A stretch of DNA of 64,000 bases from an uncultured Pseudomonadota bacterium (GCA_949288265.1 CASEJM010000015.1:2052-66051), one strand, 5' to 3'; positions 9,017-33,286 are shown, counted from the stretch's first letter. The notes: generated from the letters alone by a model not told the origin. Made by a program: numbers and translations.

Positions 9017-10018
9017 CTATCCAATTTCATCTAATATTGCTTTCAATTCCAACATATCATCTGGTAAACGCGCTTTAAAATGCATTTCTTTTCCCGTAAC
9101 TGGATGATTAAAATCTAACACTTCGGCATGTAACATCTGACCATTATGTCTTCTTAAAAAATCAAGTAATTCTAAATTCTTTACACTGGCCAGTCGTACG
9201 GAAGAACGCCCGTAAACAGGGTCACATAATACAGGAAAACCATGTGCAGATAAATGTACACGAATTTGATGCGTTCTGCCAGTTAATAAAGTACACCTAA
9301 ATTCTGAAACACCGGCACGTGGCCACACATCTGCAACGGCGACTTTAGTATGTGCAGGTTTTCCCCCAGTTTTCACCATCGTCATTTTCTGACGATTACG
9401 AGAAGAACGGGCAATATTTCCTGTAATATCCGCACCTTCCCAATTTGGTACCCCCCATACAAACGCTAAATACTTACGCGTCAAATCATGCGCCGTAAAA
9501 ATTTTAACCAGACCGCGAAAAGCTGCATCTGATTTGGCAAAAACCATCACCCCACTGGTATCCTTATCAAGTCTGTGTACCACCCCAGGTCGAACATCCC
9601 CACCAAGTGTAGATAAATTAGTATGATGTAAAATATTCTGAACCAAAGTACCAGTATTGTTACCAGCTGACGGATACATAACCACGCCACGCGGTTTATT
9701 TATTACGATTATATCGTCATCTTCATATAAAATATCTAAATCCAAATCACAAGAAACGTTTTCCGCCGCAATATTACTTATTCTTTCTGGTATAATTACA
9801 GAAATTTTATCCCCTGCACGAAGACGAGTTGAAAACTTCGTATTTCCACCATTTAAACTTACATTAAACTTTTGAATCTCGCTGCGGGAAAACGCTGGCA
9901 ATAGATCTGCCAAAAACTTATCTAACCTTACGCCAACATCTGAATCAGCTGCCACAAAATCACGAACTTCCTGCATGGAATACCTATTTATATTCAGACC
10001 AATCGGGCCCTTTTTCAC
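9017..10018 (-). CDS. rluD: RluA/RluD-family 23S rRNA pseudouridine synthase (S4 domain plus catalytic domain)
   Basis: HRLDKDTSG catalytic motif, an S4-like N-terminus (RLDKFLADLLP...SRSEIQK) and GRTHQIRVH. The likely true start is the internal ATG at 9976 (MQEVRDF), which avoids overlap with the upstream ORF. Confidence 0.75.
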   Translation of the reverse strand: MKKGPIGLNINRYSMQEVRDFVAADSDVGVRLDKFLADLLPAFSRSEIQKFNVSLNGGNTKFSTRLRAGDKISVIIPERISNIAAENVSCDLDLDILYEDDDIIVINKPRGVVMYPSAGNNTGTLVQNILHHTNLSTLGGDVRPGVVHRLDKDTSGVMVFAKSDAAFRGLVKIFTAHDLTRKYLAFVWGVPNWEGADITGNIARSSRNRQKMTMVKTGGKPAHTKVAVADVWPRAGVSEFRCTLLTGRTHQIRVHLSAHGFPVLCDPVYGRSSVRLASVKNLELLDFLRRHNGQMLHAEVLDFNHPVTGKEMHFKARLPDDMLELKAILDEIG

Positions 10019-10514
10019 ACTTTCCTAAATCAATCGTTAATTCACGCCCTGAACTTTCAACAGGACATATTAACATTCCCGTACTTTCTGCCTGATCCGC
10101 ATCACGTGTTGCATTACGCCATGTAAATTTTATTTCTTCTGGTGCATACAAACACGCAATATGCAGTTCACCATCATGCTTATCATTTGGTCCCAACCAA
10201 ACGCGTACACCATACCCAAGCCCATAACAAGGGAAACCATCTAAATAATACAATACCAACCCTCGACCAACCAAACTAGATGAAGTTATAAAATTTCCGC
10301 GATATTCCGAATAACGCAAACCCGTCAACCCTTCCCAATCTGTACTAGTAGAAAAAATGCTGACGCGCGCTTGCTGATTAGGCTTTGACGGATTATTCCC
10401 CCCCTGTTCTCTTACCTGAGGATGACTTGGTTTTGAATCCTCCGCAATTGCCGGATTTAAAAACAAACTAATCGCGAATAACGTATACAGAAAAACTTTC
10501 ATCTTTTCCCCCAT
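9984..10514 (-). CDS. Secreted hypothetical protein (signal peptide), last gene of the pilin-like operon
   Basis: N-terminal signal MKVFLYTLFAISLFLNPAIA. No known domain. Its start overlaps the stop of the 10514..11020 gene. Confidence 0.45.
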   Translation of the reverse strand: MGEKMKVFLYTLFAISLFLNPAIAEDSKPSHPQVREQGGNNPSKPNQQARVSIFSTSTDWEGLTGLRYSEYRGNFITSSSLVGRGLVLYYLDGFPCYGLGYGVRVWLGPNDKHDGELHIACLYAPEEIKFTWRNATRDADQAESTGMLICPVESSGRELTIDLGKCEKGPDWSEYK

Positions 10515-11020
10515 TATTCTTTACTATCTAATTCAACGGCTATTTTTTCTACGTTTGATACGGGTACAGATAATTTATGAGAAAACTTAACTTCACTGCC
10601 TGCATCTAATAATGTCGCAGAAGGTAAAAATTTTTGTCGTGCTATAACGTTTCCATTAACGTCATATGAAACGATGACCAAACCTGGAGCCCCATAAATC
10701 TGTTCAGACCGATTTACAACCCGCCCCGATACAACAAATTTAGTAATACCACTTTCATCTGTATCGGTTTTTACGTCCATAATTTCCGCAACAATAGGCT
10801 TTTCTTGAATCTCTTTTACCTTATGTTGATACAAAACTGCAACCGCAAATATTAATGCCGCCAATAAAGCACATAATGCAGCAATGAATACTAATACCGA
10901 ATTACGTCGCTGTGGTCGCTGAACAACCCACGTATTACCACAAATCGCACATTTAACGGGTCCAGAAGGAACGACGTCTAAAGAATACTCTGTTTTACAA
11001 AAATTACATACTGTTTTCAT
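10514..11020 (-). CDS. Zinc-ribbon (MJ0042-type C-x2-C...C-x2-C) membrane protein with a DUF3426-like C-terminal domain
   Basis: N-terminal CNFCKTEY...CAICGN zinc-ribbon, then a single TM helix (VLVFIAALCALLAALIFAVAVL), then a ~100-aa beta-rich domain. Confidence 0.5.
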   Translation of the reverse strand: MKTVCNFCKTEYSLDVVPSGPVKCAICGNTWVVQRPQRRNSVLVFIAALCALLAALIFAVAVLYQHKVKEIQEKPIVAEIMDVKTDTDESGITKFVVSGRVVNRSEQIYGAPGLVIVSYDVNGNVIARQKFLPSATLLDAGSEVKFSHKLSVPVSNVEKIAVELDSKE

Positions 11021-11040
11021 AATATGATTTATACCATAAA

Positions 11041-12399
11041 TTATTCTAAATTCAACTGATGATATTTTAACCCCACTGCATTTTGAATTTCATTTATTGC
11101 GTTCATATAATCTGATGCTGTTGCGTTCTTATTAGTAGCTACCGCATTAAATATACGCCAAGTATCTGTATCCGTATCATCTTCTTCATACACAACCGTC
11201 TGCGCCATACGACTTAATTCTTGCAAAGAAACATCCATAAAATTTGCAACACCATAAGAAGCATCCCAATAATAATCAGGGTTAACAGAATCTTCTATTC
11301 TATCATGCACTTCTAACCTTGGTGTAATAGATCCAGCAAAACCAACTGTTACAAACATTGCATCAATGTTTCCACCTGTCATATCCAAAGATTTATTAAT
11401 ATTTAATACAACGGGACCATCGTCTGAATATGTCGACAATCCCCCCAAGGTCATATTAGAAACCCATAAATCCCCCGTAGAAAAACTTGTAAATTTTCCA
11501 GTATCCGCCATGGAAAATGTCTTAGCCACTTCCATTGTTCTGGAATCTGATGACAATGTGCCAGAAACAGTTGCATTTTGTACTTCTAGTATCTTATCTA
11601 ATGTAGTTCTATTTTGAAAAATTGTATCAACTGTTACGGCAACCCCCAGGGTAAGACTTTCTGTAAATTCAACCGCGTCGGCATTAAAAAAAGTAGAATT
11701 ACTTATATCATGTCCACCTAAATTTAAATCAGACAGCATTGTCGCATCTGAAGCATTATCCGTTGGTACTCTGTACAAATACAATGCATTATCACGATTA
11801 ACTGCGGTTGTCTCGACCAACCCATCTGAAACGTTTAAGCCTAAATCTATCGTGTCTGCTCGCCATGCACCAAACGTACCATAGGCACGATTTCCTTCAA
11901 TAAAGCCCATAGAATCACCACCCATAGCAACTATTTCACGGGTACGCATTGGCGTTATCTCATCTGAAGAAAAAACTATTACCCCTTGTAAAGTTGCCCG
12001 ACCATCTATATCACTAGACTTTAAAACACGTAATTGATAACTGCCGGTATCATCTGATGCTAAATCTGGGTTTAAACCGTATTCCGCTAAATCCGCAATA
12101 TTTACTCTTATAATATTTCGTCCAACTGTATTTAAAAACTCTTCACGATGATCTACTATATAACGTTCCAAAGCAGTTTGAATACTTTCCATCTGTTCTG
12201 CAATAGCAACGTTTTCTGCCCGCTGAACAACGCTTTGCTGATACTTAAAAATAAATGGCATAACTATTGCAGCCAGCGCAACGGTCATCAACAATTCAAC
12301 TAACATTGACCCCTTTTGAGAGTCTTTTCTTAATCTTAGACCAAAATTTTTACTTATGTAACTCATCATTGAATTTCCTTTGGCATGGCAAATTGCCAA
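11041..12399 (-). CDS. Large type IV prepilin-like protein (class III signal: KG|SMLVE, Glu at +5), 452 aa in the ORF track
   Basis: Basic leader ending in Gly, then a hydrophobic N-terminal helix SMLVELLMTVALAAIVMPFIF. The probable start is the ATG at 12366, which overlaps the stop of the upstream gene (TGATG-type coupling). The C-terminal 400 aa have no recognised domain. Confidence 0.55.
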   Translation of the reverse strand: MAICHAKGNSMMSYISKNFGLRLRKDSQKGSMLVELLMTVALAAIVMPFIFKYQQSVVQRAENVAIAEQMESIQTALERYIVDHREEFLNTVGRNIIRVNIADLAEYGLNPDLASDDTGSYQLRVLKSSDIDGRATLQGVIVFSSDEITPMRTREIVAMGGDSMGFIEGNRAYGTFGAWRADTIDLGLNVSDGLVETTAVNRDNALYLYRVPTDNASDATMLSDLNLGGHDISNSTFFNADAVEFTESLTLGVAVTVDTIFQNRTTLDKILEVQNATVSGTLSSDSRTMEVAKTFSMADTGKFTSFSTGDLWVSNMTLGGLSTYSDDGPVVLNINKSLDMTGGNIDAMFVTVGFAGSITPRLEVHDRIEDSVNPDYYWDASYGVANFMDVSLQELSRMAQTVVYEEDDTDTDTWRIFNAVATNKNATASDYMNAINEIQNAVGLKYHQLNLE

Positions 12400-13574
12400 T
12401 CTGATGACATTATCGTATCAAATTCCTTTGGGTCTGGCATCACAGGAATCGTACCACGCGATAAATATAATTCAGAAAAACTTGGTGGCGTCAAAGACGG
12501 AAATACCCAACTACCTATTTTTAACGGCGGCGTCGTTGACATTAACAATTCACCAGATATCGTCAAACCAAAATCTTCATAAAATATTATTTCTTCTGCC
12601 GACACAAATGAAGTAAGGACAGTGTGTGCAACAATTCCTGTAAATCCACTGATTGTACGACTAGAATCAGACTTTAACGTTAAAACATTTCCAACATTTA
12701 CCGAATTTACAACAGTCGCCCTGTCTGTTATTATTCTTCCAGATGTTGTGTAATTATCACCATTTAAAGTATCCGCATATATATTTCTAAAACCAGAAAC
12801 ATCGCCAGTAACGCGCATAGAACCAAACCAAGATTTATCCCCGTCAAGATTTGCACCGGACGAAAAATACAATGTATCCGCTGACAAATTACTTGTTTCT
12901 ATAAATTGACTGGTCGCATTTTTAATTTTTGCCGATTTAGCAAAAATTCCACCTACGTCATAAACGCGATTATAATTCATATTTAAATCACGAAGCATTA
13001 CATTAAGATGTTCTTCACCTGTTTCCGTTTGATGTAAATATTTTGTTTTATCTTCACCGTCTAAATCCCGTGATATTCGATATATTAAATCACCAGACTT
13101 AAAATCTGGTGCAGACACGGCCCACGTTTGTCCGTATGCTATACCATCGTCACCTACGACAGCAGCATCAGAGCCTATATGCCTTGCAACTTTTGAGGTA
13201 CGTAAATCTGTTTCATCTAAATCAAAAGACAAATACACATCAGTAATAGTTGCCCCATTTACGACATATTTATCAACAAAACCTGCTATAGGTAAGGTGG
13301 ATATTTCATCTAATTCTTCGTCTGATAATTTTATTTGAGCAACATCCGGCCAGTCATTCTGATTTAAACGAACAAAATTTAATACTTTATCACGCAAACC
13401 GATAATTTTATTTGCTTCTGCAATATCTCGCAACGTATCGTTTGTGTCGGAAATTTGACTGTATAACAGTGGCGTTGCCATTGCAACAATCGCCATTGCC
13501 AGTAATACTTCCAGCATACTAGCGCCATATTGAATATTAGTAAAAAATTTCATTTTACTTACAGTCACTGCCAC
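12366..13574 (-). CDS. Large type IV prepilin-like protein (YG|ASMLE, Glu at +5), about 400 aa
   Basis: Prepilin-peptidase-type N-terminus MKFFTNIQYG|ASMLEVLLAMAIVAMATPLL. Overlaps its neighbours by 20 and 34 nt, so it belongs to the same operon. Confidence 0.55.
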   Translation of the reverse strand: MAVTVSKMKFFTNIQYGASMLEVLLAMAIVAMATPLLYSQISDTNDTLRDIAEANKIIGLRDKVLNFVRLNQNDWPDVAQIKLSDEELDEISTLPIAGFVDKYVVNGATITDVYLSFDLDETDLRTSKVARHIGSDAAVVGDDGIAYGQTWAVSAPDFKSGDLIYRISRDLDGEDKTKYLHQTETGEEHLNVMLRDLNMNYNRVYDVGGIFAKSAKIKNATSQFIETSNLSADTLYFSSGANLDGDKSWFGSMRVTGDVSGFRNIYADTLNGDNYTTSGRIITDRATVVNSVNVGNVLTLKSDSSRTISGFTGIVAHTVLTSFVSAEEIIFYEDFGLTISGELLMSTTPPLKIGSWVFPSLTPPSFSELYLSRGTIPVMPDPKEFDTIMSSDWQFAMPKEIQ

Positions 13575-14964
13575 CTTCTAATAAACATTGCTTTATTTTT
13601 ATTCTTTTCTCTAAACGCTGCCAGAAATAGTATTGACATATTATATACTGAGACAAAGACTTTGCATTATAGCGCCCTTCAAGTTTTGATATGATGTCAC
13701 GACAACTTTGTGTTTTATCGTCATCTGCAGATGGGCGATTTATTATCGAAAAACCATCATTACTAATTGTATTCAAAAGTACATCTGGTAATACTGACGT
13801 ACCAGCAGGCCTAATATCCAAAACCACAGCCCCAGTTTCCCCTTGGTTCAACGCATCAGATGTCTGATCGCGCATAGTTATATTGGAAACAATTATTGTA
13901 TTAGTCTCAAGACCTGTACGAGAACTATATTCTAAATTATCTGGGTCAATATACACGTCTTGTCCGCGCGATGCATCTATATAAGAATCTATATCTAAAC
14001 GTTCCAAACTAAAATTAATATTTTCACTTATAACGTCTCCATTCACAGTCCAATTAGGCGGGCCTGAAAAACTTGTTCGCCCCGCTGTCATTGCAAAATC
14101 ATAAACGGATGCAGTATTTGAAGTAAAATTACCGGTATCACCAAACATTGATACAGTTCTTGTAGAAAAGTCGTCAACGTATAAAGAACCGCGCGTCAAT
14201 GATAAAGCAGATTCACCTAAAGGGCTTTGAAAAACGGCACGATCTGCCATCATAACTTCTATTGTGTTACGTACTTTTCTTCCGTCTTCTACCCCATACA
14301 AAGACAATGTATTAAATTGCCCGCTATCAAACTCGCCACGACGAGCAAAAATTTCACCGCCATTATTAAAAGAAAATCCCCCCATATCAAGATTAGTTAA
14401 AAAAGCGTTATCATCTAAGTTTTGTTCATTTCTTCGCACAACATCCGAATAAGCAGAATCTAAGGCCAAACCAACTAAAATCGCATCACCGGATACAGAA
14501 GCATAAAAACCTATTCTTCTTGCCAGTTCGGCCAATTCTACTGCGGATAAATCGCCACCACTTAACTGCAAATACGCGCTAACCGCCATTGGCGTTTTAT
14601 TTATCACCAAAGATATATCTTGTCCCAAAGCCGTGCGTGGCACAAACCCAAGCGGTAAACCATAAGATTCCAACAAATCAGAAAAAGTATTACCAGAAAC
14701 AACGGTTGTATTATAAGGTAAATCATTTGCCCGCTCACGAATGAAAATTCTTGCGGCAGTTTGCGCAACTTCTACTTTCTGCGTAGAAGCATACATCTGC
14801 GCATCAATATCTCTTGCCGCCAACCGTTGTGCAAAAAACGGTATGAACGAAAATATCAGCGCCAGCGCAAGCAATGCTTGTAACAAAAAATTACCACTTT
14901 GTCGCTGCAAGTCCGTCACCCTCCTACACCTGTAAATATTAGCAATTGAAAAAAAATATTGCAA
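13555..14964 (-). CDS. Large prepilin-like protein (SG|NFLLQ, Gln instead of Glu at +5, as in GspK/PilX-type minor pilins), 469 aa
   Basis: A hydrophobic N-terminal helix LLQALLALALIFSFIPFF follows a Gly-ending leader. First gene of the operon. Confidence 0.45.
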   Translation of the reverse strand: MQYFFSIANIYRCRRVTDLQRQSGNFLLQALLALALIFSFIPFFAQRLAARDIDAQMYASTQKVEVAQTAARIFIRERANDLPYNTTVVSGNTFSDLLESYGLPLGFVPRTALGQDISLVINKTPMAVSAYLQLSGGDLSAVELAELARRIGFYASVSGDAILVGLALDSAYSDVVRRNEQNLDDNAFLTNLDMGGFSFNNGGEIFARRGEFDSGQFNTLSLYGVEDGRKVRNTIEVMMADRAVFQSPLGESALSLTRGSLYVDDFSTRTVSMFGDTGNFTSNTASVYDFAMTAGRTSFSGPPNWTVNGDVISENINFSLERLDIDSYIDASRGQDVYIDPDNLEYSSRTGLETNTIIVSNITMRDQTSDALNQGETGAVVLDIRPAGTSVLPDVLLNTISNDGFSIINRPSADDDKTQSCRDIISKLEGRYNAKSLSQYIICQYYFWQRLEKRIKIKQCLLEGGSDCK

Positions 14965-27218: not shown

Positions 27219-27869
27219 ATGGCATCCATCTTGGAAAGAAATAAAAAGTTAAAACCAGCTAAAAAAACGCGCGAAGAATATGCAGAAGACGCTTTGTATC
27301 GCGAAGTTTGGGAAGAAGTAAATAATGATAAAACCATGGCTTTTATTAAAAAATATTCCCGACACATAATTGCAGGCGCACTGGCCGTAATGATTATTGC
27401 AACAATGGTTGTAATAGGCGTCAGAACTTATCATTCTCATAAAATAGCAATCGCAGAAAATTACGAATTAGCTGTACAAAAGTTAGACTCAAACATGTTA
27501 AATTCTGTTGCAGAAAACGCCGGGGGTGCAACGTCTGATTTAGCTTTATTTCAAGCATACTTATTAGACAACGACATTGAAAAATTAGAACGTTTAGCAA
27601 ACGAAGGTCATTCTCGTGATTTCCGTGATTTGGCGCGTCTTCATATTATAGGATTACGCGGTGACGATATGAGTGCCGAAGAAATTGAAAAATATTTATC
27701 ACCGTTAAACACGAAAAAATCACCGTATTATTATACAAGCAGACTGACAGTCGCAGAAAAATACTTAGCCGAAGGTGATAGAAAAAGCGCAAACAAATGG
27801 CTAGACATCATAATAAATGACGCAGAAGCTCCAGGGATGATTTCTGCTACCGCTCAGGCATTAAGATAA
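27219..27869 (+). CDS. yfgM: YfgM-like membrane-anchored TPR-like protein (UPF0070)
   Basis: Cytoplasmic N-terminus, a single TM helix (IIAGALAVMIIATMVVIGV) and an alpha-helical periplasmic domain. Position upstream of the bamB-like gene matches the yfgM-bamB-der order known from E. coli. Confidence 0.5.
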   Translation: MASILERNKKLKPAKKTREEYAEDALYREVWEEVNNDKTMAFIKKYSRHIIAGALAVMIIATMVVIGVRTYHSHKIAIAENYELAVQKLDSNMLNSVAENAGGATSDLALFQAYLLDNDIEKLERLANEGHSRDFRDLARLHIIGLRGDDMSAEEIEKYLSPLNTKKSPYYYTSRLTVAEKYLAEGDRKSANKWLDIIINDAEAPGMISATAQALR

Positions 27870-27884
27870 TACAGGTATAAACAG

Positions 27885-28616
27885 ATGCGAAAAATTGGAA
27901 CGATTTTTTGTTGTTTAATATTAGTGTCAGGTTGTGCAGAGCACGACCCCATATTACCAGGTGAACGTATACCAATTTTTAATACTAAAAACATAAAAAT
28001 ATTAAACCAGAAAATTGAAAACCTTCCTGAAACGGTAGACGTTACAACAGAAGAAGATTGCCCTTATACCCAAGATTCTTCTAATGTTATACGAAATGGG
28101 GACACAAAAATATTCAGTGGTTTTCCGACAAATAACGCCGTTGAAAGCGCACAAAAACCAATATGCAAAAGCGGTTATGTTTATGCAGGACTTACGACTG
28201 GGGAAGTTATAAAAATCGCCCCTAAAAGCCGTAAAATTATTTGGATAGCAGACGTGTTTCGCACCAGTAATATGACAGGTGGCGCATCAATAGTAGATAT
28301 TGTGGCCCCATTAATTGTACAAGATGGTTATGTATATGCCGGCGGTTTAGGTGACGCATTCTGTAAAATAAACGCCGCGTCCGGAGAAAAAAAATGGTGT
28401 ACAGAAATAAGTACTGCACTGCCATTTATAGTTATGGGGAATGCCGTATTTGTTACGGGTACAGATAACAGTCTTTACGCGGTTCGTACGTCAGACGGGG
28501 CAATATATTGGAAAACAGCGATAAAAGAACAAAACAAACCAACGTATGAAAAGAAAGTTATTACTGTTGGTAATGAAAAAATAAATGCCGAAACCGGCGA
28601 GAAATTATCTAAGTAA
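27885..28616 (+). CDS. bamB: PQQ-repeat (beta-propeller) lipoprotein, BamB-like but short (243 aa)
   Basis: Lipobox LVSGC. At least three blade-like repeats (GYVYAG...IIW, GYVYAGG...KKW, VFVTGTDNSLYAV...IYW). Full-length BamB is about 390 aa with 8 blades. Confidence 0.5.
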   Translation: MRKIGTIFCCLILVSGCAEHDPILPGERIPIFNTKNIKILNQKIENLPETVDVTTEEDCPYTQDSSNVIRNGDTKIFSGFPTNNAVESAQKPICKSGYVYAGLTTGEVIKIAPKSRKIIWIADVFRTSNMTGGASIVDIVAPLIVQDGYVYAGGLGDAFCKINAASGEKKWCTEISTALPFIVMGNAVFVTGTDNSLYAVRTSDGAIYWKTAIKEQNKPTYEKKVITVGNEKINAETGEKLSK

Positions 28617-28650
28617 TGAAAAGCCCGCATATTCTTGCGGGCTTTTTATT
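28617..28650. terminator. Rho-independent terminator (AAAGCCCGCA-tattct-TGCGGGCTTT + T-run)
   Basis: Immediately after the bamB-like stop; also downstream of the convergent tfa gene. Confidence 0.6.
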
Positions 28651-28976
28651 TAACCTTTATATTGATCAAACGTTTTAATTACAATCTCAGGAAAATCCTT
28701 TTGCTGCGGTATATCGCGCAAGTATTGCCGATATGATTTATAAAGCTTCTTTTCTTCGTCAGTAATAGGGAAATCAATAACCATATACTTATCTGTCTGC
28801 TTTAGCAAAAAATCTCGTTCTATGCGCTTTTCTTTGGCCAGATCTTTTATCACTTCTTCTAAGCGATATGTACCATTACCCAACGAAACGCTTTGTAAAT
28901 TTTTACCATTACGGTTATTCCAGTTTACAAAATCAATATGCTGTTCTTTATTAATAACTTGTCCTGATATAAACAT
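28650..28976 (-). CDS. tfa: Phage tail-fibre assembly protein (Tfa / Caudovirales tail fibre assembly chaperone)
   Basis: C-terminal motif YKSYRQYLRDIPQQKDFPEIV matches the Tfa signature (W..YR..LRDVPQQ.GFP). Lies directly downstream of the tail-fibre gene. Confidence 0.6.
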   Translation of the reverse strand: MFISGQVINKEQHIDFVNWNNRNGKNLQSVSLGNGTYRLEEVIKDLAKEKRIERDFLLKQTDKYMVIDFPITDEEKKLYKSYRQYLRDIPQQKDFPEIVIKTFDQYKG

Positions 28977-28991
28977 TGTCTGTCCTCCTCT

Positions 28992-31145
28992 TTATGCTGC
29001 TTTACCTGAAACAAACCAATAACCATAGTTAGACCCAGATACACCGGCATATCTACAAACGAATACGAAACTAGTTTCTGTCTGGTTGTTATATCCTGTA
29101 TCGTAACCACTTGCCGATGTCTTGCCGTAAAAACCCTGAACGATAGTATAATGGCTATCAGACATAGGAATCGGTAAACTTACAGTATTTTCTGGAGATG
29201 TTGGGGGCATAATATATCCACCCTGCTCAACCCACCCAGACTTATACATACGATACCAAGTGTAACTATTATCTTCTGTGGGTAATTGAGAAGCAACCAC
29301 ATAATCGCAATTAGTTGATAAGTTAGATAAATCAGTTTTTAAAAAACTGGTCGCAGAGATAACGCCATCTGATATATTAATGTTCTCACCGGCCGTAAGT
29401 TTATCCTGTTTATTTTCAACCGCGTCTTGAATAGTTTTTAAGTCAATTACCCGAAAAGCATTTGCCTGATTTATGCTGTTTATGCGAGTTCCATCATTAC
29501 CTATATCGGCAATTTTTGCATAACTTCTATTAGTTCCATCTGGAATATATTTTATAAAATTGCTTTCTTCATCATACTTATAAATTCCCACATCAACAGC
29601 GACCAAACCGGAAGCATTTGCCCATAATTCCTGTCTGGAAAAATCAGGGAAAGTATAAACTTTCACTTCATTTTGAACATTCATAGAGTTTTTCAAACTT
29701 CCATCCGAGTTTATGCCATTAGGTGCCAAAACTTGTAATCCAGGCAGTGTGAATGCAGTTATACCAATAAATCCGACGCAGTTGAAAATCTGGTCTATAC
29801 TTATTACTGTGCCAGCAGAATTCATAGAAACTATCGCAATAGGTAATGATATATTATATACATTCCAGGTGCTGCCAGCATTATTTGTATATTTTATCTG
29901 ATTGTTTGCAGTATCATACCATATATGAGTATTACCTGTTAAACCTGTTGGGACTGTATTACCTGACCATTCTCTTTCAAAAGGAAAATAATCATCAGAA
30001 GATGGGTTATAAACTAAAAGTCCTTGTGATTCACCAAAATTTTGAACAGTTAATGTTTTATCGCTTTGTAAAACTGTTTCTGTAAAGACCCCAACGCCAT
30101 TAGGAACATAAACAACGCTTCCAGCTTTTAATGTAAGGACTCCGTTTTCTAGCGTAATTTTTACCTTTTGCGGTTTTTGTACTATACAATTAGTGATTTT
30201 ATTACTTAATTTTTCAATATTTGAAACGCTTAATGGCAAAGCATTTGTACCGGCACCAGACAAACTTTCATCGTGACTTACAGCCAACAAACCTTCTGCC
30301 CCCGAAGAAGCCATTGCCGAAGTAATAATGTTACCATCTATACCAACTTGTAAAAACTTTCCTGCGTTTTCTGAACCTTGCTGAATACTTATTTTACCAG
30401 ATATCTGGTTTGCATAAGCATCATACGTAGCCACTTTAGTTGATGTAATACCAGAATTAGTTGCTTGCAATTGTACATTTGTTAGTAGATTCTGTTTTTC
30501 CGCCAATGCACTAGAAACTTCGCTTTTGGTTGCATACAAAGACATATCATGAGTATGATTTGCTAATGCAAAATTACTTGTATCTGGTATTTCGTCTTTA
30601 GTTGCGAAATCACTTGTGTCTGGAATTTCATCTTTAGTTACAAAGTCGCTTATGTCCGGGAACTCATCTTTTTTTACAAAATTACTAACGTCTGGTATTT
30701 CATCTTTTCTTGCCAGTTCGTCAAGACCACCCAAATTATCTATTTGCTCCTGTATAGAATCTACGAATTGCACAGCATTTTCAATATTTGCTATATCCCC
30801 ATCTAATTCATATATATCTTTCATAAACTCTAACATAAAATTAAAGTCAGCATTTAAACTTTCTGTTTGTATAGGTAAAGTCGGTTGATAATCTATGACA
30901 CGTGATAAATCTATTTTACGCCATATACGAATAGTCGCGCCTGATACAGGTGCTGTATTTAAAACAATTTTACCACCTGGATACATACCATCACTTTGTA
31001 AATTTTTAGAAAAAACTACGGTATATTCACTAATTTTTAAGATCTCAGAATTTATAGAAACTTTTACATCGGCAGCTTTAAAAAAGGGAAATGCAAAATC
31101 AAACTCTGTTGTTGAACCGTCACCGGTATATTGTATCAGATACAT
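28992..31145 (-). CDS. Phage tail-fibre protein with a T7 gp17-like N-terminal tail-attachment domain, 12-aa tandem repeats and a C-terminal receptor-binding region
   Basis: N-terminus MYLIQYTGDGSTTEFDFAFPFF...VKV...ATIRIWRK...LNADFNFM parallels T7 gp17 (DGSNRDFNIPFEYL...VVV...IELRR...DGSILRAYDLN). Repeats KDE(I/F)PD(V/I/T)S(N/D)F x4. The long, low-Cys, Gly/Ser/Thr/Asn-rich C-terminus is typical of fibres. Confidence 0.7.
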   Translation of the reverse strand: MYLIQYTGDGSTTEFDFAFPFFKAADVKVSINSEILKISEYTVVFSKNLQSDGMYPGGKIVLNTAPVSGATIRIWRKIDLSRVIDYQPTLPIQTESLNADFNFMLEFMKDIYELDGDIANIENAVQFVDSIQEQIDNLGGLDELARKDEIPDVSNFVKKDEFPDISDFVTKDEIPDTSDFATKDEIPDTSNFALANHTHDMSLYATKSEVSSALAEKQNLLTNVQLQATNSGITSTKVATYDAYANQISGKISIQQGSENAGKFLQVGIDGNIITSAMASSGAEGLLAVSHDESLSGAGTNALPLSVSNIEKLSNKITNCIVQKPQKVKITLENGVLTLKAGSVVYVPNGVGVFTETVLQSDKTLTVQNFGESQGLLVYNPSSDDYFPFEREWSGNTVPTGLTGNTHIWYDTANNQIKYTNNAGSTWNVYNISLPIAIVSMNSAGTVISIDQIFNCVGFIGITAFTLPGLQVLAPNGINSDGSLKNSMNVQNEVKVYTFPDFSRQELWANASGLVAVDVGIYKYDEESNFIKYIPDGTNRSYAKIADIGNDGTRINSINQANAFRVIDLKTIQDAVENKQDKLTAGENINISDGVISATSFLKTDLSNLSTNCDYVVASQLPTEDNSYTWYRMYKSGWVEQGGYIMPPTSPENTVSLPIPMSDSHYTIVQGFYGKTSASGYDTGYNNQTETSFVFVCRYAGVSGSNYGYWFVSGKAA
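30571..30714. repeat. 4 x 36-bp imperfect tandem repeat within the tail-fibre gene (encodes the KDEIPDxSxF repeats)
   Basis: Units at 30571-30606, 30607-30642, 30643-30678 and 30679-30714, about 75-85% identical to each other. Confidence 0.7.
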
Positions 31146-31288
31146 TTATTCTCCTTTTATTTTTTATAAAAAATAACCCGCGCAAAAGTCTTGCTCGGGC
31201 AATTTAAAAGTCCGCCGGTGGCGGACTAAAACTTAATTTTTATGTGGCGCTATTATATCATAAAACTCGAAAAAAATCAAGCATACAA

Positions 31289-31885
31289 TTATAATAAACA
31301 TGCCAAAGTTGCACTGGCATTTTTCAACATAAACCAACCTATACGGTAATCTGTTACATAAATTGTAATTAGAAACAAAGCCAATATTGCAATTACTATA
31401 ATTACGTTGCTACGCTTTCCGCGCATACAATACAATGCGATGTTATAAAATAGAAACAATACGTATGTATCAACCAACAAGCTTATAACCCACATTGAAG
31501 TACAATTAAAAGCCAACGCGTTTAAAACCAAAACAACTGGGTAAATGAAAAATACAGAAGCCAAGCCTTTGATAGCAATTTCCCAGTCTCGTTCACCACC
31601 CGTTATTTCTGAAACAAGCATCATCAAACCACCAAACACGAAAAGCAAAGCCACAGCAAGCACAGGAACGATTATAAGAGCTGTAAAAACAGCACCTATT
31701 GTTATAGTTGCACCGCCAATTAAACGAAGGAACAATACCAAACAACCGCCAAGCAATCCATAAATGAAGGCTTTTAACATGGATTCTTCCATATTTCCAT
31801 CAGCCACTATTTTAGTGAAATAACGTTTTGGGTTTATCAATAAATTTTTTAAGCGTTTTAAGCCCTTTTTAATTTTTTTCATCAT
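31289..31885 (-). CDS. Multi-pass inner-membrane protein (Yip1/DUF1282-like)
   Basis: About 5 predicted TM helices after a basic N-terminus. Followed (minus strand) by the hairpin AGTCCGCC-accg-GCGGACT. Confidence 0.4.
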   Translation of the reverse strand: MMKKIKKGLKRLKNLLINPKRYFTKIVADGNMEESMLKAFIYGLLGGCLVLFLRLIGGATITIGAVFTALIIVPVLAVALLFVFGGLMMLVSEITGGERDWEIAIKGLASVFFIYPVVLVLNALAFNCTSMWVISLLVDTYVLFLFYNIALYCMRGKRSNVIIVIAILALFLITIYVTDYRIGWFMLKNASATLACLL

Positions 31886-31939: not shown

Positions 31940-33286
31940 ATGGAAAAAGTTATGTTAAAACTAACAATTGTAGGTCGCCCAAATACTGGTAAGTCGACTT
32001 TATTTAATGCATTAACCGGAACACGTGATGCCTTGGTACACGATCGCCCTGGGGTTACGCGCGACACAATCAGCGGTCAAATGCGCGATCGCGCTTGGGA
32101 AATATTCGACACGGCGGGCCTTGAAAACGCAAAATCTGGTATTGCGGCAGACTCTACGAACATGGCTTTAGACGCAATATCTTCGTCTGACGCGATACTT
32201 TTCGTCGTAGACGGGCGCGTTGGTTTAACCTCGTCCGATATTGATTGGGCTCGTTTAGTTCGCAGAAAAACACATTCACCAGTATTACTAATAGTAAACA
32301 AATCTGAATCTGCTAAGCGTTTAGCTGATATACACGACTTTTATAAATTAGGTTTTGGCGAACCTGTAACAATTTCTGCAGAACATAAAAAAGGTTTCGA
32401 TAAAATATATGAATTTCTTGATAATATATTACCTGAAAACCAATCAGATAAATTAGAAGAAGAACCGCAGAAATTAAAAATCGCAATTATGGGGCAGCCT
32501 AACGTTGGTAAATCAACATTAGTAAACCGCGTACTTGGTGAAAAACGACAAATAGTTATGGACGCGCCCGGTATTACAAGAGATACGGTAAAAATACCAA
32601 CAAAATTTTACGGTCGTGCTATAGTTATTATGGACACAGCGGGACTTCGTCGTAAAGCCGGGGTTAAAGATGACGTTGAAACACTATCTGCATTAAAATC
32701 ATTAGACGCCATTGAAAAATCAGACGTCGTAATATTGGTTATAGACGCAACAAAGAACATAGAAAATCAAGCCTTAGGTATCGCAGCACGCGTATATGAT
32801 GCTGGTAAAATATTATGCGTAGCATTGAATAAGTGGGATTTAGTAGAACCAGAAGTCCGAGATGAAAAATTGCTAAAACTAAAACATCAGTTTACAAATT
32901 CTTTTCATCAGATAATAAAACCAATGATATTGGCAATCTCGGCCGAAACCGGTACGGGTGTTCAGAACATGTTCCGCCGTATATACGAACAATGGGATAT
33001 ATCTAATACAGATGCTCCAACAAGTTTGATAAACCGTATAATTGAAAAATTAATAGACGCACGGCAACCACCAATGTCACGTTTAAAACGCCCTATGAAA
33101 ATAAAATTCGCACGACAAACCGGACGTCATCCAATGAAAATAACCATAAACGTCGGTGGGGCTTCTGACATCCCAGAATCTTATACTAGATACCTTCGAC
33201 GTGGTCTGGCAGAGGCGTTGCATTGGGAACATTTACCGATCATAATTGAATACAAAAAAGAAGAAAACCCATTTGGTGAAAAATAA
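31940..33286 (+). CDS. der: Ribosome-biogenesis GTPase Der (EngA), double GTPase plus KH-like domain
   Basis: Two G-domains (GRPNTGKSTLFN...DTAG...NKSE and GQPNVGKSTLVN...DTAG...NKWD) and a C-terminal KH domain. Confidence 0.9.
   Translation: MEKVMLKLTIVGRPNTGKSTLFNALTGTRDALVHDRPGVTRDTISGQMRDRAWEIFDTAGLENAKSGIAADSTNMALDAISSSDAILFVVDGRVGLTSSDIDWARLVRRKTHSPVLLIVNKSESAKRLADIHDFYKLGFGEPVTISAEHKKGFDKIYEFLDNILPENQSDKLEEEPQKLKIAIMGQPNVGKSTLVNRVLGEKRQIVMDAPGITRDTVKIPTKFYGRAIVIMDTAGLRRKAGVKDDVETLSALKSLDAIEKSDVVILVIDATKNIENQALGIAARVYDAGKILCVALNKWDLVEPEVRDEKLLKLKHQFTNSFHQIIKPMILAISAETGTGVQNMFRRIYEQWDISNTDAPTSLINRIIEKLIDARQPPMSRLKRPMKIKFARQTGRHPMKITINVGGASDIPESYTRYLRRGLAEALHWEHLPIIIEYKKEENPFGEK

What the first reader, a model, noticed from the sequence alone, without database searches (positions are those of the whole stretch)
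27885..31288. Orphan phage tail-fibre plus Tfa chaperone cassette inserted between a short bamB-like gene and der
E. coli has yfgM-bamB-der. Here yfgM and a PQQ-repeat lipoprotein are present, but the lipoprotein is only 243 aa (about 3 blades versus 8 in BamB) and ends at a terminator. Immediately after it, on the opposite strand, lie a 717-aa tail-fibre gene (T7 gp17-like N-terminal adaptor domain) and a Tfa-type assembly chaperone, then a Yip1-like membrane protein, then der. No capsid, terminase, tail-tube or integrase genes are present. A lone fibre plus chaperone next to envelope-biogenesis genes could be a domesticated adhesin, part of a dispersed gene-transfer-agent or tailocin system, or the scar of a degraded prophage that truncated bamB.
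Basis: partly seen in the sequence, partly recalled or inferred. Interest (0 to 1): 0.6.

Follow-up and report, generated by a model that had tools for sequence, protein, structure and literature searches.

The report
Spare fibre of a domesticated phage
A lone phage tail-fibre gene and its chaperone in a tiny-genome gut bacterium (Candidatus Enterousia) is not a prophage scar but a conserved, selected gene that shares its unusual control region with a phage-derived particle gene cluster found elsewhere in this genus, so it is most likely the swappable "targeting" fibre of a domesticated virus-like particle.

Summary
The window carries a 717-aa fibre with a T7 gp17-type N-domain (28992-31145, -) and a Tfa-type chaperone (28650-28976, -). 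They lie between a 243-aa PQQ/BamB-like lipoprotein and a 198-aa membrane protein next to der, with no other phage genes nearby.

The organism is Candidatus Enterousia (Alphaproteobacteria, order Rs-D84; genomes under 1 Mb).

- **Short BamB-like gene:** it is 239-246 aa in all 13 related loci, including four with an empty site. Nothing truncated it.
- **Inheritance:** the fibre sits at the same site in 7 of 11 syntenic species. Its N-domain tree matches the species tree.
- **Selection:** the N-domain is under strong purifying selection (dN/dS about 0.07). The stalk repeats, central module and tip vary, and one module is 85.5% identical in DNA to a podovirus contig.
- **Partner cluster:** the closest N-domain relatives lie in a conserved 12-kb podovirus-like cluster (scaffold, capsid, adaptor, nozzle, split terminase, portal). 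Part of this cluster occurs in a named Enterousia genome.
- **Shared control region:** the fibre and the cluster's first gene have the same leader, a conserved strong promoter followed by two intrinsic terminators.

Best reading: an accessory fibre of a GTA-like podovirus-derived particle, switched on by antitermination. Co-occurrence of both loci in one genome was not shown.

The parts
27885..28616 (+). Short PQQ/BamB-like lipoprotein (243 aa). A native, genus-wide short protein that neighbours the fibre but is not part of the fibre module.
   Evidence: PF13360 E 5e-16. TIGR03300 scores 55.6 bits against a cut-off of 285. A profile of the orthologues matches BamB residues about 177-300 only. 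The protein is 239-246 aa in all 13 related loci, with or without the fibre.
28619..28647 (.). Bidirectional intrinsic terminator between the convergent lipoprotein and chaperone genes (AAAA-GCCCGC-loop-GCGGGC-TTTTT).
   Evidence: Read directly from the sequence. Sub-threshold Rfam leader and terminator-type hits fall here only. Empty-site relatives keep just such a hairpin.
28650..28976 (-). Tfa-type tail-fibre assembly chaperone (108 aa).
   Evidence: PF16778 E 1.6e-17; phrog_4912, 4628 and 8746 'tail fiber assembly'. Present next to the fibre only in clade A species (window, L001/L005, L003), at 57-61% identity.
28992..29315 (-). Fibre C-terminal tip (aa 611-717, YTWYR.YKSGWVEQGG motif). 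The distal knob and likely chaperone-dependent receptor-binding tip.
   Evidence: Weak PF21882 Gp53-like_C match (E 0.004). pLDDT is about 85-95. Foldseek matches R1/R2 pyocin fibre C-terminal parts. The tip is present in every Enterousia fibre but very divergent (dN 0.4-0.96; alignment).
29316..30455 (-). Fibre central module (aa 231-610). A widely shuffled phage fibre module, present only in the long forms (window, L001/L005).
   Evidence: Most of the 321 database homologues match only this part, within varied architectures. The L001/L005 copy is 85.5% identical in DNA over 685 bp to podovirus contig L002 (82% amino-acid identity, dN/dS 0.115/0.356). pLDDT is at least 90 for aa 310-570.
30569..30713 (-). 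Four 36-nt (12-aa, KDEIPDxSxFxx) tandem repeats in the fibre stalk. Copy number differs between species.
   Evidence: Tandem Repeats Finder and repeat family D1. The alignment shows about 1 to 9 copies in relatives.
30726..31145 (-). Fibre N-terminal tail-docking domain (aa 1-140, T7 gp17 N type). This is the conserved, constrained part.
   Evidence: PF03906 and phrog_1640. Foldseek matches fibre N-domains in podovirus tail complexes. It is 57-69% identical across Enterousia. dN/dS is 0.055/0.74 for L008 versus L010. It is 40-54% identical to the 181-188-aa protein of the podovirus-like cluster.
31177..31227 (-). Two successive intrinsic-terminator hairpins with U runs in the fibre leader (hairpin 1 at 31209-31227, hairpin 2 at about 31177-31200), upstream of the RBS AAAGGAG and the ATG at 31145.
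   Evidence: Terminator scan. The fold has z = -4.07, and all 12 related leaders fold the same way with z from -3.3 to -8.6. All 6 pairs of hairpin 1 show compensatory changes.
31252..31281 (-). Conserved sigma-70 promoter of the fibre (TTGATT, 17-nt spacer, extended -10 TG-TATAAT) with a conserved spacer. It starts 7 nt after the stop codon of the upstream membrane-protein gene.
   Evidence: Best promoter match in the region, 10 of 12 plus TG. It is unique in the window (0 expected by chance). It is conserved in all 9 fibre loci and upstream of the first gene of the cluster in L027-L031 and L036. A PWM built from these sites scores them at 29.9 bits or more; everything else scanned, in the window and the loci held at that point, scores 20.3 or less.
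31289..31885 (-). 198-aa polytopic membrane protein (context). Conserved at 78-95% whether or not the fibre is present; no family match.
   Evidence: No Pfam, PHROG or NCBIfam hit. Present in every related locus.

Best explanation
The cassette is a vertically inherited accessory module of a domesticated podovirus-like particle system in Candidatus Enterousia. It is neither a prophage scar nor a recent insertion.

The conserved N-terminal domain would dock the trimeric fibre on the adaptor-nozzle junction of a T7-like tail. That tail is encoded by a separate, genus-wide 12-kb cluster: endolysin-like protein, scaffold, capsid, gp11-like adaptor, gp12-like nozzle, a 181-aa protein that is the N-domain paralogue, a split large terminase, and portal.

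The stalk repeats, central module and chaperone-dependent tip are the variable targeting part. They are exchanged with phages and reshaped between species.

Expression is tied to the cluster by a common leader. A strong promoter with a conserved spacer fires into two intrinsic terminators, so the fibre is made only when an antiterminator lets RNA polymerase read through. This resembles lambda Q acting at PR'-tR', or GafYZ in the Caulobacter GTA.

Shown here: gene identities, conservation, selection, module exchange, the shared leader, and part of the cluster (portal half) in a named Enterousia genome.

Inferred: physical assembly of this fibre on that tail, antitermination as the switch, and GTA-like DNA packaging by the particle.
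For: 1. **Not a scar.** Intact fibre ORFs occupy the same site in 7 of 11 syntenic species. The N-domain tree is congruent with a 5-protein species tree, which implies an ancestral gene and at least 3 losses. N-domain dN/dS is 0.055/0.74.
2. **Tail-docking fold.** PF03906 and phrog_1640, plus Foldseek hits to fibre N-domains bound to podovirus tails.
3. **Closest N-domain relatives.** A profile search finds a family of 181-188-aa proteins, 40-54% identical. Each sits in a conserved chromosomal cluster of scaffold PF05396, capsid PF19821, gp11-like phrog_394 (E 4e-29), nozzle phrog_376 (E 1e-83), TerL-N, TerL-C PF22530 and portal PF12236. By contrast, the podovirus L002 N-domain gives no BLAST hit.
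4. **Housekeeping-like conservation of the cluster.** Capsid is 79-91% and portal 76-89% identical between genomes, in a conserved chromosomal context. The portal family has 4490 members, many on 0.86-0.94-Mb contigs. One portal is annotated Candidatus Enterousia avistercoris, and the contig that carries it holds the right-hand half of the cluster.
5. **Shared leader.** The promoter CTTGAyTTTT..TTTgTGATATwAT followed by two hairpins with U runs lies upstream of all 9 fibre loci, of the cluster's first gene in 6 loci, and of another lone fibre, L038. The 5' arm of hairpin 1 (GTCCGC) is shared between the two kinds of locus. Nothing else in the window or the loci scanned reaches the PWM score of these sites.
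6. **Further terminators inside the cluster.** These lie before the capsid gene and fit a need for processive antitermination.
Against: - The cluster and the der-locus fibre were never seen in one and the same genome or contig. The link rests on genus-level presence and the shared leader.
- No antiterminator protein was identified. The cluster regulators are only generic HTH proteins.
- Four species lack the fibre, so it is dispensable.
- Two metagenomic copies are frameshifted, either by assembly error or by decay.
- The cluster has its own N-domain protein, so a second fibre is not strictly needed.
- Nothing shows that particles are made or that they package host DNA.
- The species tree is a neighbour-joining tree of five proteins with short internal branches.
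Confidence: 0.6

Rival explanations
1. A host-resident fibre reservoir or decoy for infecting podoviruses. The chromosomal gene would recombine with, or be incorporated into, virions of phages such as the L002-type podovirus. That would change or spoil their host range, as cryptic-prophage stf/tfa genes do in E. coli. No resident particle would be involved.
For: The central module of L001/L005 is 85.5% identical in DNA to the fibre of podovirus contig L002, which also has an adjacent chaperone. Most database relatives of the central module are phage fibres of varied architecture.
Against: The constrained part is the N-domain. It does not match the L002 fibre N-domain (no hit), and L002 shares no other gene with the Enterousia cluster. 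The fibre leader is absent from L002 but shared with the chromosomal cluster. A pure recombination reservoir would not explain dN/dS of about 0.07 on the docking domain.
Confidence: 0.13
2. A free-standing domesticated fibre used by the cell itself, for example as an adhesin for attaching to a partner cell or as a glycan-binding surface protein. It would be unrelated to any capsid or tail.
For: Enterousia is thought to depend on partner cells (PMC12306168). The tip varies between species. In L008/L025 and L038 the lone fibre lies next to polysaccharide-synthesis islands. A VirD4 coupling protein lies 4 kb away.
Against: The protein has no obvious signal peptide or lipobox by eye; it begins MYLIQYTGDG like virion fibres, though no predictor was run. 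The strongest constraint is on the tail-docking domain rather than the tip. The leader is shared with head and tail genes.
Confidence: 0.12
3. A decaying prophage remnant. The last surviving genes of a phage that integrated next to der and clipped bamB.
For: A fibre plus chaperone with no other phage genes nearby. GC content is slightly lower than in the flanks. Two metagenomic copies are frameshifted.
Against: The short lipoprotein is conserved in all relatives, including empty-site species. There are no att-like repeats and no integrase. ORFs are intact in 7 species despite saturated synonymous divergence, and the N-domain is under purifying selection. The gene tree is congruent with the species tree. 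A dedicated promoter-terminator leader is conserved.
Confidence: 0.04

Closest known systems
Dispersed loci of gene transfer agents (RcGTA tail-fibre and head-spike genes outside the main cluster; the two-locus podovirus-like FpGTA of Faecalibacterium, PMC12946183)
   Same: Phage-derived structural genes are fixed in a host lineage. An accessory fibre or receptor-binding gene lies away from the head-tail cluster and is co-regulated with it. There is no integrase or phage replication module nearby.
   Different: The Enterousia cluster is T7-like (scaffold PF05396, gp11/gp12-like tail, gp17-type fibre N-domain). It is not RcGTA-like siphoviral, and it lies in an alphaproteobacterium with a genome under 1 Mb. 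It has a split large terminase with dnaB between the halves. Neither particle production nor random DNA packaging has been shown.
Lambda late-gene control: PR' promoter, tR' terminator and Q antiterminator. Also GafYZ antitermination of the Caulobacter GTA cluster (from my own knowledge of that literature).
   Same: A strong promoter is followed within about 25-90 nt by intrinsic terminators ahead of late or structural genes. The sequence between -35 and -10 is conserved, which is where the lambda Q binding element lies. More terminators lie inside the operon.
   Different: No Q, GafY or GafZ homologue was identified. There are two tandem terminators instead of one. The leader is used at several unlinked loci. 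The mechanism is inferred from anatomy only.
T7 gp17-type podovirus tail fibres, with Tfa/R-pyocin-type tip chaperones
   Same: The N-domain family and fold (PF03906; Foldseek to T7, LME-1, Carin-1 and PhiM1 fibres). A coiled stalk. A tip resembling R-pyocin fibre ends, which need a Tfa-like chaperone. The chaperone belongs to family PF16778.
   Different: The gene is encoded alone in a bacterial chromosome. There is no sequence relative among 50,697 GenBank phage records apart from one short stretch of about 50 residues (E 1e-3). The central module has no solved-structure match by sequence.
Side-tail-fibre and tfa genes of cryptic prophages in E. coli K-12 (stfR/tfaR, stfE/tfaE)
   Same: A lone fibre plus Tfa pair in a chromosome. 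Modules are exchanged with infecting phages.
   Different: Those lie within recognisable prophage remnants and are strain-variable. This one is at a fixed housekeeping site, inherited with the genus, selected on its docking domain, and has a dedicated leader shared with a resident head-tail cluster.

Membership tests
T7 gp17-type tail fibre (PF03906 N-terminal domain) | N-terminal domain of the Phage_T7_tail family above the curated threshold | tested here: met
   PF03906 scores 28.6 bits against a cut-off of 25.2, E 1.3e-6, residues 4-88. phrog_1640 E 4e-13.
T7 gp17-type tail fibre (PF03906 N-terminal domain) | Fold of the N-domain equals that of fibre N-domains bound at the adaptor-nozzle junction of podovirus tails | tested here: met
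   Foldseek hits 9efk_AE, 8ck1_B, 8vbx_S, 8es4_F and 7boz_c, with probability 1.00 and TM (target) 0.45-0.58 over about 115-120 residues. Model pLDDT is about 87-95 for residues 1-80.
T7 gp17-type tail fibre (PF03906 N-terminal domain) | Encoded together with, and assembled on, a podovirus tail | tested here: inconclusive
   There are no tail genes in the window. A gp11/gp12-like tail is encoded in the genus-wide cluster, but not shown in the same genome. Assembly cannot be tested with these tools.
Tfa-type tail-fibre assembly chaperone (PF16778) | Family match above threshold, with the gene immediately downstream of the fibre it serves | tested here: met
   PF16778 scores 63.5 bits against a cut-off of 26.6. 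The chaperone start is 15 nt after the fibre stop, on the same strand. The same arrangement is seen in L001, L003 and phage L002.
BamB (outer-membrane protein assembly factor, TIGR03300 / NF008351) | Full eight-bladed beta-propeller lipoprotein reaching the equivalog score | tested here: not met
   TIGR03300 scores 55.6 bits against a cut-off of 285, and NF008351 scores 43.4 against 423. The profile aligns only to BamB residues about 177-300. The lipobox is present (LVSGC). The short form is conserved across the genus.
Integrated prophage or prophage remnant | Integrase and flanking att direct repeats; presence or absence as one block with clean target-site junctions | tested here: not met
   No integrase was found, and there are no flanking direct repeats beyond 14-15-nt chance matches. 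Empty sites keep a terminator but no att-like scar. The gene tree follows the species tree.
Gene transfer agent (GTA, viriform) | Phage-derived head-tail genes fixed and vertically conserved in a cellular lineage, without phage replication or integration modules | tested here: inconclusive
   Met for the cluster in relatives: conserved synteny and chromosomal context, capsid 79-91% and portal 76-89% identity, 4490 portal relatives, and no integrase within 10 kb on either side. However, a dnaB gene and HTH regulators lie inside the cluster, and the cluster was not seen in this window's own genome.
Gene transfer agent (GTA, viriform) | Accessory loci elsewhere in the genome co-regulated with the main cluster | tested here: met
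   The same promoter plus two-terminator leader precedes the fibre (9 loci), the cluster's first gene (6 loci) and another lone fibre, L038.
Gene transfer agent (GTA, viriform) | Particles package random host DNA and cannot transfer their own full gene set | not testable with these tools
   This needs sequencing of the particle fraction or genetics.
Q-type (lambda-like) late-gene antitermination | Promoter followed closely by intrinsic terminator(s) upstream of late genes | tested here: met
   Promoter at 31252-31281 and hairpins at 31209-31227 and about 31177-31200, each followed by a U run. The same arrangement is seen in all related leaders.
Q-type (lambda-like) late-gene antitermination | A Q-family antiterminator protein encoded by the element | tested here: inconclusive
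   Pfam and PHROG scans of the unassigned cluster proteins gave only HTH_3-type regulators (81 aa, 335 aa), a weak MarR-like hit, and no Q family.

The most novel reading that the evidence does not exclude
Candidatus Enterousia, and probably the whole order Rs-D84, may carry an undescribed podovirus-derived gene-transfer-agent-like system. It would consist of a 12-kb T7-like head-tail cluster, with a split terminase and dnaB embedded between the halves, plus unlinked lone fibre genes such as this one. All would be wired into one antitermination regulon through a shared promoter plus double-terminator leader. The fibres' targeting modules would be swapped with phages and often sit beside glycan-synthesis islands, so that the particle and its surface receptor could diversify together.
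Probability: 0.45. Interest if true: 0.85.

Novelty: new variant of a known kind. Interest (0 to 1): 0.72.

Why it matters
Bacteria with genomes under 1 Mb shed almost everything they do not need. A 2.5-kb phage fibre cassette and a 12-kb phage head-tail cluster kept intact across a genus therefore imply a real function.

If the particle is GTA-like, it would be a second, independent, podovirus-type GTA lineage in Alphaproteobacteria. It would also be one of very few candidates in gut bacteria; FpGTA of Faecalibacterium was reported in 2026 as the first podovirus-like one (PMC12946183). It would give uncultured, partner-dependent gut symbionts a route for gene exchange.

The shared leader is a directly testable handle. 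It defines a regulon by sequence, predicts a short terminated transcript plus an inducible read-through, and can be searched for in every Rs-D84 genome.

The locus also shows how a fixed docking domain is combined with interchangeable targeting modules drawn from the phage pool.

Tried and rejected
1. **GenBank phages.** A tblastn of the fibre found only a stretch of about 50 residues in an archaeal virus record listed under two accessions. There is no named phage relative.
2. **PDB sequence search of the fibre.** Nothing meaningful.
3. **Link by shared flanking genes.** I tried to tie the cluster loci to the der loci through shared housekeeping genes. None overlap.
4. **Link by contig identity.**
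   - An exact look-up of the window's 198-aa protein returned only 3.6-6.2-kb contigs.
5. **Metagenome scan with a degenerate promoter pattern.** It returned 80 loci, but none has the fibre or cluster genes downstream.
6. **Consensus folding of hairpin 2.** MAFFT and RNAalifold failed because the hairpins are not alignable in sequence. Each leader was folded separately instead.
7. **Rfam.** No family matches at the leader.
8. **attL/attR-like repeats around 28617-31288.** None found.
10. **Idea that the 198-aa membrane protein belongs to the module.** Rejected, because it is conserved at 78-95% whether or not the fibre is present.
11. **Tailocin reading.** Rejected, because the partner cluster encodes capsid, scaffold, portal and terminase.

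Full report
**What is there**

The region holds, in order:
- a yfgM-like gene (27219-27869, +);
- a 243-aa PQQ-repeat lipoprotein (27885-28616, +);
- a bidirectional terminator (28619-28647);
- a 108-aa chaperone (28650-28976, -);
- a 717-aa fibre (28992-31145, -);
- a 143-nt leader;
- a 198-aa membrane protein (31289-31885, -);
- der (31940-33286, +).

The fibre N-terminus matches PF03906 (T7 tail fibre N-domain) above threshold and phrog_1640. The chaperone matches PF16778 and several 'tail fiber assembly' PHROGs. The lipoprotein matches PQQ_2/BamB, but it scores far below the BamB equivalog cut-offs and covers only about three blades.

No other phage genes were found in the window. A tblastx with the cluster locus L027 and PHROG scans of ten unannotated ORFs were negative. 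The same fibre arrangement is assembled in three further sequencing runs.

**Whose genome**

A scan of species-representative genomes with the lipoprotein returned 12 loci, all from gut MAGs named Candidatus Enterousia or 'uncultured Alphaproteobacteria'. Enterousia belongs to order Rs-D84. Its genomes are 0.75-1.0 Mb, lack most biosynthesis, and suggest dependence on partner cells (PMC12306168).

**The bamB question**

In all 13 related loci the lipoprotein is 239-246 aa.
- In four species (L004, L006, L009, L011) it is followed after 46-65 bp, a single terminator hairpin, by the membrane-protein gene, with no fibre.
- In two more distant species (L012, L013) the neighbourhood is rearranged, and the protein is still short.

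The short protein is therefore native, and nothing truncated it. I could not test whether a full-length BamB exists elsewhere in the genome.

**A conserved but polymorphic fibre locus**

Seven of the eleven syntenic species carry a fibre in the same place and orientation:
- 717 aa plus chaperone (this window);
- 596 aa plus chaperone (L001/L005);
- 314 aa plus chaperone (L003);
- 382, 323, 336 and 313 aa without chaperone (L007, L008, L010, L014).

All of these are intact ORFs. The architecture is modular:
- a conserved N-domain (57-69% identity);
- a variable number of 12-aa KDEIPDxSxF repeats, four in the window as 36-nt tandem repeats at 30569-30713;
- an optional 380-aa central module;
- a divergent tip carrying a YTWYRLYKSGWVEQGG motif.

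Flanking proteins are 75-94% identical between the window and L001, but the fibre is 48% and the chaperone 57% identical.

A neighbour-joining tree of the N-domain reproduces the two clades and the L008-L010 pairing of a five-protein species tree. The gene is therefore ancestral and was lost at least three times.

For the closest informative pair (L008 and L010), the N-domain has dN 0.055 and dS 0.74. The tip has dN 0.73. The docking end is strongly constrained, and the distal end diverges or is replaced.

There are no att-like repeats. A decaying scar is excluded.

**Exchange with phages**

Most of the 321 database homologues match only the central module, within many different fibre architectures. 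The closest full-length relative outside Enterousia is the fibre of a podovirus-like contig, L002. In L002 the fibre is followed by a chaperone, a terminase and a portal.

The L002 central module is 85.5% identical in DNA over 685 bp to that of L001/L005, with dN/dS about 0.3. However, its N-domain gives no BLAST hit to the window's, and L002 shares no other gene with the Enterousia cluster. Targeting modules move between phages and this locus, while the docking domain does not.

**Structure**

An AlphaFold model is confident for the N-domain, the central module (aa 310-570) and the tip.
- Foldseek matches the N-domain to fibre N-domains resolved on podovirus tails: LME-1, Carin-1, PhiM1, HRP29, Kp7/Kp9 and T7 gp17.
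- It matches the distal part to R1/R2 pyocin fibre ends, which need Tfa-like chaperones.

**The partner**

A profile of the Enterousia N-domains finds other Enterousia der-locus copies (L025, L026). It also finds a large family of 181-188-aa proteins that are 40-54% identical.

Each of these proteins lies in the same conserved chromosomal cluster of about 12 kb:
- an endolysin-like protein (phrog_938);
- a 64-aa protein;
- a T7-type scaffold (PF05396);
- a histone-H1-like basic protein;
- a capsid protein (PF19821);
- a 76-aa protein;
- a 172-aa gp11-like tail protein (phrog_394, E 4e-29);
- a 570-aa nozzle (phrog_376, E 1e-83; PF25675);
- a 116-aa protein;
- the N-domain protein itself;
- the ATPase half of the large terminase;
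- three genes on the other strand (a 220-aa unknown, a 335-aa double-HTH regulator and dnaB);
- the nuclease half of the terminase (PF22530);
- a portal (PF12236);
- Bbp19;
- an 86-aa protein.

Between genomes with GC content of 36-50%, the capsid is 79-91% and the portal 76-89% identical. That is the same range as InfB or Der among Enterousia. The chromosomal context is conserved. IMG/VR holds the same cluster as predicted proviruses.

A portal profile finds 4490 relatives, many on 0.86-0.94-Mb contigs, which is whole reduced genomes. One portal is MBO8425659.1 from Candidatus Enterousia avistercoris. The contig read for it, JADINC010000072.1, shows dnaB, terminase-C, portal, Bbp19, an Mtd_N protein, glycan genes, VirB8 and BamA.

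The genus therefore carries a domesticated T7-like head-and-tail gene set. It is not in this 64-kb window.

**The regulatory link**

Upstream of the fibre lies a strong promoter (TTGATT, 17 nt, TG-TATAAT; 31252-31281, -) that starts 7 nt after the stop of the membrane-protein gene. It is followed by two intrinsic-terminator hairpins with U runs (31209-31227 and about 31177-31200), then the RBS and the ATG.

- The promoter, including its spacer, is conserved in all nine fibre loci and is unique in the window.
- The same architecture, with a recognisably homologous promoter (CTTGACTTTT..TTTGTGATATTAT) and a shared GTCCGC arm in hairpin 1, lies upstream of the cluster's first gene in L027-L031 and L036.
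- It also lies upstream of another lone fibre gene, set within a polysaccharide locus in a different genome, L038.
- A PWM of these promoters scores them at 29.9 bits or more. Nothing else in the window or the loci scanned exceeds 20.3.
- All twelve leaders fold into two hairpins, with z-scores from -3.3 to -8.6.
- All six pairs of hairpin 1 show compensatory changes.
- Rfam has no match.

A promoter that fires straight into terminators ahead of structural genes is the anatomy of lambda PR'-tR' under Q. More terminators before the capsid gene also call for processive antitermination. I infer an antitermination regulon. The antiterminator itself was not identified.

**Interpretation**

The cassette is best read as an accessory, exchangeable fibre, with its chaperone in one clade, for a resident podovirus-derived particle. 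The particle has capsid, portal and terminase genes, so it is GTA-like rather than a tailocin. The literature library holds no description of it. A podovirus-like GTA-like element was first reported in 2026 in Faecalibacterium.

Three steps remain inference:
- that the two loci coexist in one genome;
- that the fibre assembles on that tail;
- that particles are produced and what they package.

Rivals that are not excluded are a recombination reservoir or decoy for infecting phages, and a free-standing adhesin. Both explain less well the constraint on the docking domain and the shared leader.

**Verdict**

The 'truncated bamB' and 'scar' options are refuted. I rate novelty as a new variant of a known kind, interest at 0.72, and confidence in the best explanation at 0.6.

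Noticed in passing
L036:10590-15289 (also L027, L030, L031, L032, L015-L024): In the podovirus-like cluster the large terminase is split into an ATPase half (180-209 aa) and a nuclease half (257-283 aa). The halves are about 3.3 kb apart, and the gap carries, on the opposite strand, a 220-aa unknown, a 335-aa double-HTH regulator and a dnaB helicase. The split is conserved in every genome seen. It is unclear whether this dnaB is the cell's only replicative helicase, and whether the halves are ever joined.
   Followed up: partly
L008:10803-16835; L025:10922-14796; L038:5997-9074 and 11246-14500; L163:4465-8786: Lone fibre or Mtd_N genes repeatedly lie beside polysaccharide-synthesis islands (DegT-type aminotransferase, glycosyltransferases, acetyltransferases, UDP-glucose dehydrogenase, RgpF). 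In L008 a 6-kb island of this kind is inserted between the lipoprotein gene and the fibre. This may mean that receptor glycan and fibre diversify together.
   Followed up: partly
L027:18117-18617; L032:12020-12535; L163:3971-4456: Small (158-171 aa) Mtd_N-domain proteins (PF18454) are encoded a short distance downstream of the cluster. The L027 copy is 42% identical to window fibre residues about 583-645 (29211-29396). They could be further fibre-like components. They lack the shared leader where I checked (L027; in L163 the 50-bp gap leaves no room for it).
   Followed up: partly
L036:5671-5988: A 105-aa lysine/alanine-rich protein lies between the scaffold and capsid genes and matches histone H1-like HC2 (PF07382, E 4e-17). 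It may be a DNA-condensing protein packaged in the head.
   Followed up: no
L025:10001-10953; L026:10001-10715: Two metagenomic copies of the der-locus fibre are frameshifted relative to near-identical intact copies. L025 has a 19-bp deletion compared with L008. L026 has six gap openings in 719 nt compared with L010. This may be assembly error or real decay in some strains.
   Followed up: partly
window:5792-8902 and 9984-14964 (- strand): A block of six ORFs (1036, 176, 168, 452, 402 and 469 aa) has no Pfam or PHROG match at all. It is lineage-specific genes of unknown function in a genome under 1 Mb.
   Followed up: partly
window:22970-25192 (+): A VirD4/TraG-type type IV coupling protein (740 aa) lies 4 kb from the fibre and is 86-93% conserved across the genus. 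No other type IV secretion genes are adjacent. VirB8- and VirB11-like genes lie next to the podovirus-like cluster in L027, L028 and L163.
   Followed up: no
window:27885-28150 (lipoprotein residues 20-88): The N-terminal third of the short PQQ lipoprotein has no BamB counterpart but is highly conserved, including the invariant AEHDPILPG motif and cysteines C59, C94, C160 and C172. The protein is likely a distinct three-bladed lipoprotein and not a BamB.
   Followed up: partly
L027:217-246 (-), also L028 and L029: A weaker relative of the regulon promoter (TTTGATTCAAGTCACGATTTGTGATAAAAT, PWM 20.3 bits) lies upstream of a VirB11-like ATPase gene, without the two hairpins.
   Followed up: no
L107:742-2025 (-): One chance hit of the metagenome pattern scan carries a distant portal homologue (28% identity to the cluster portal). 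It is unrelated to the leader motif.
   Followed up: no
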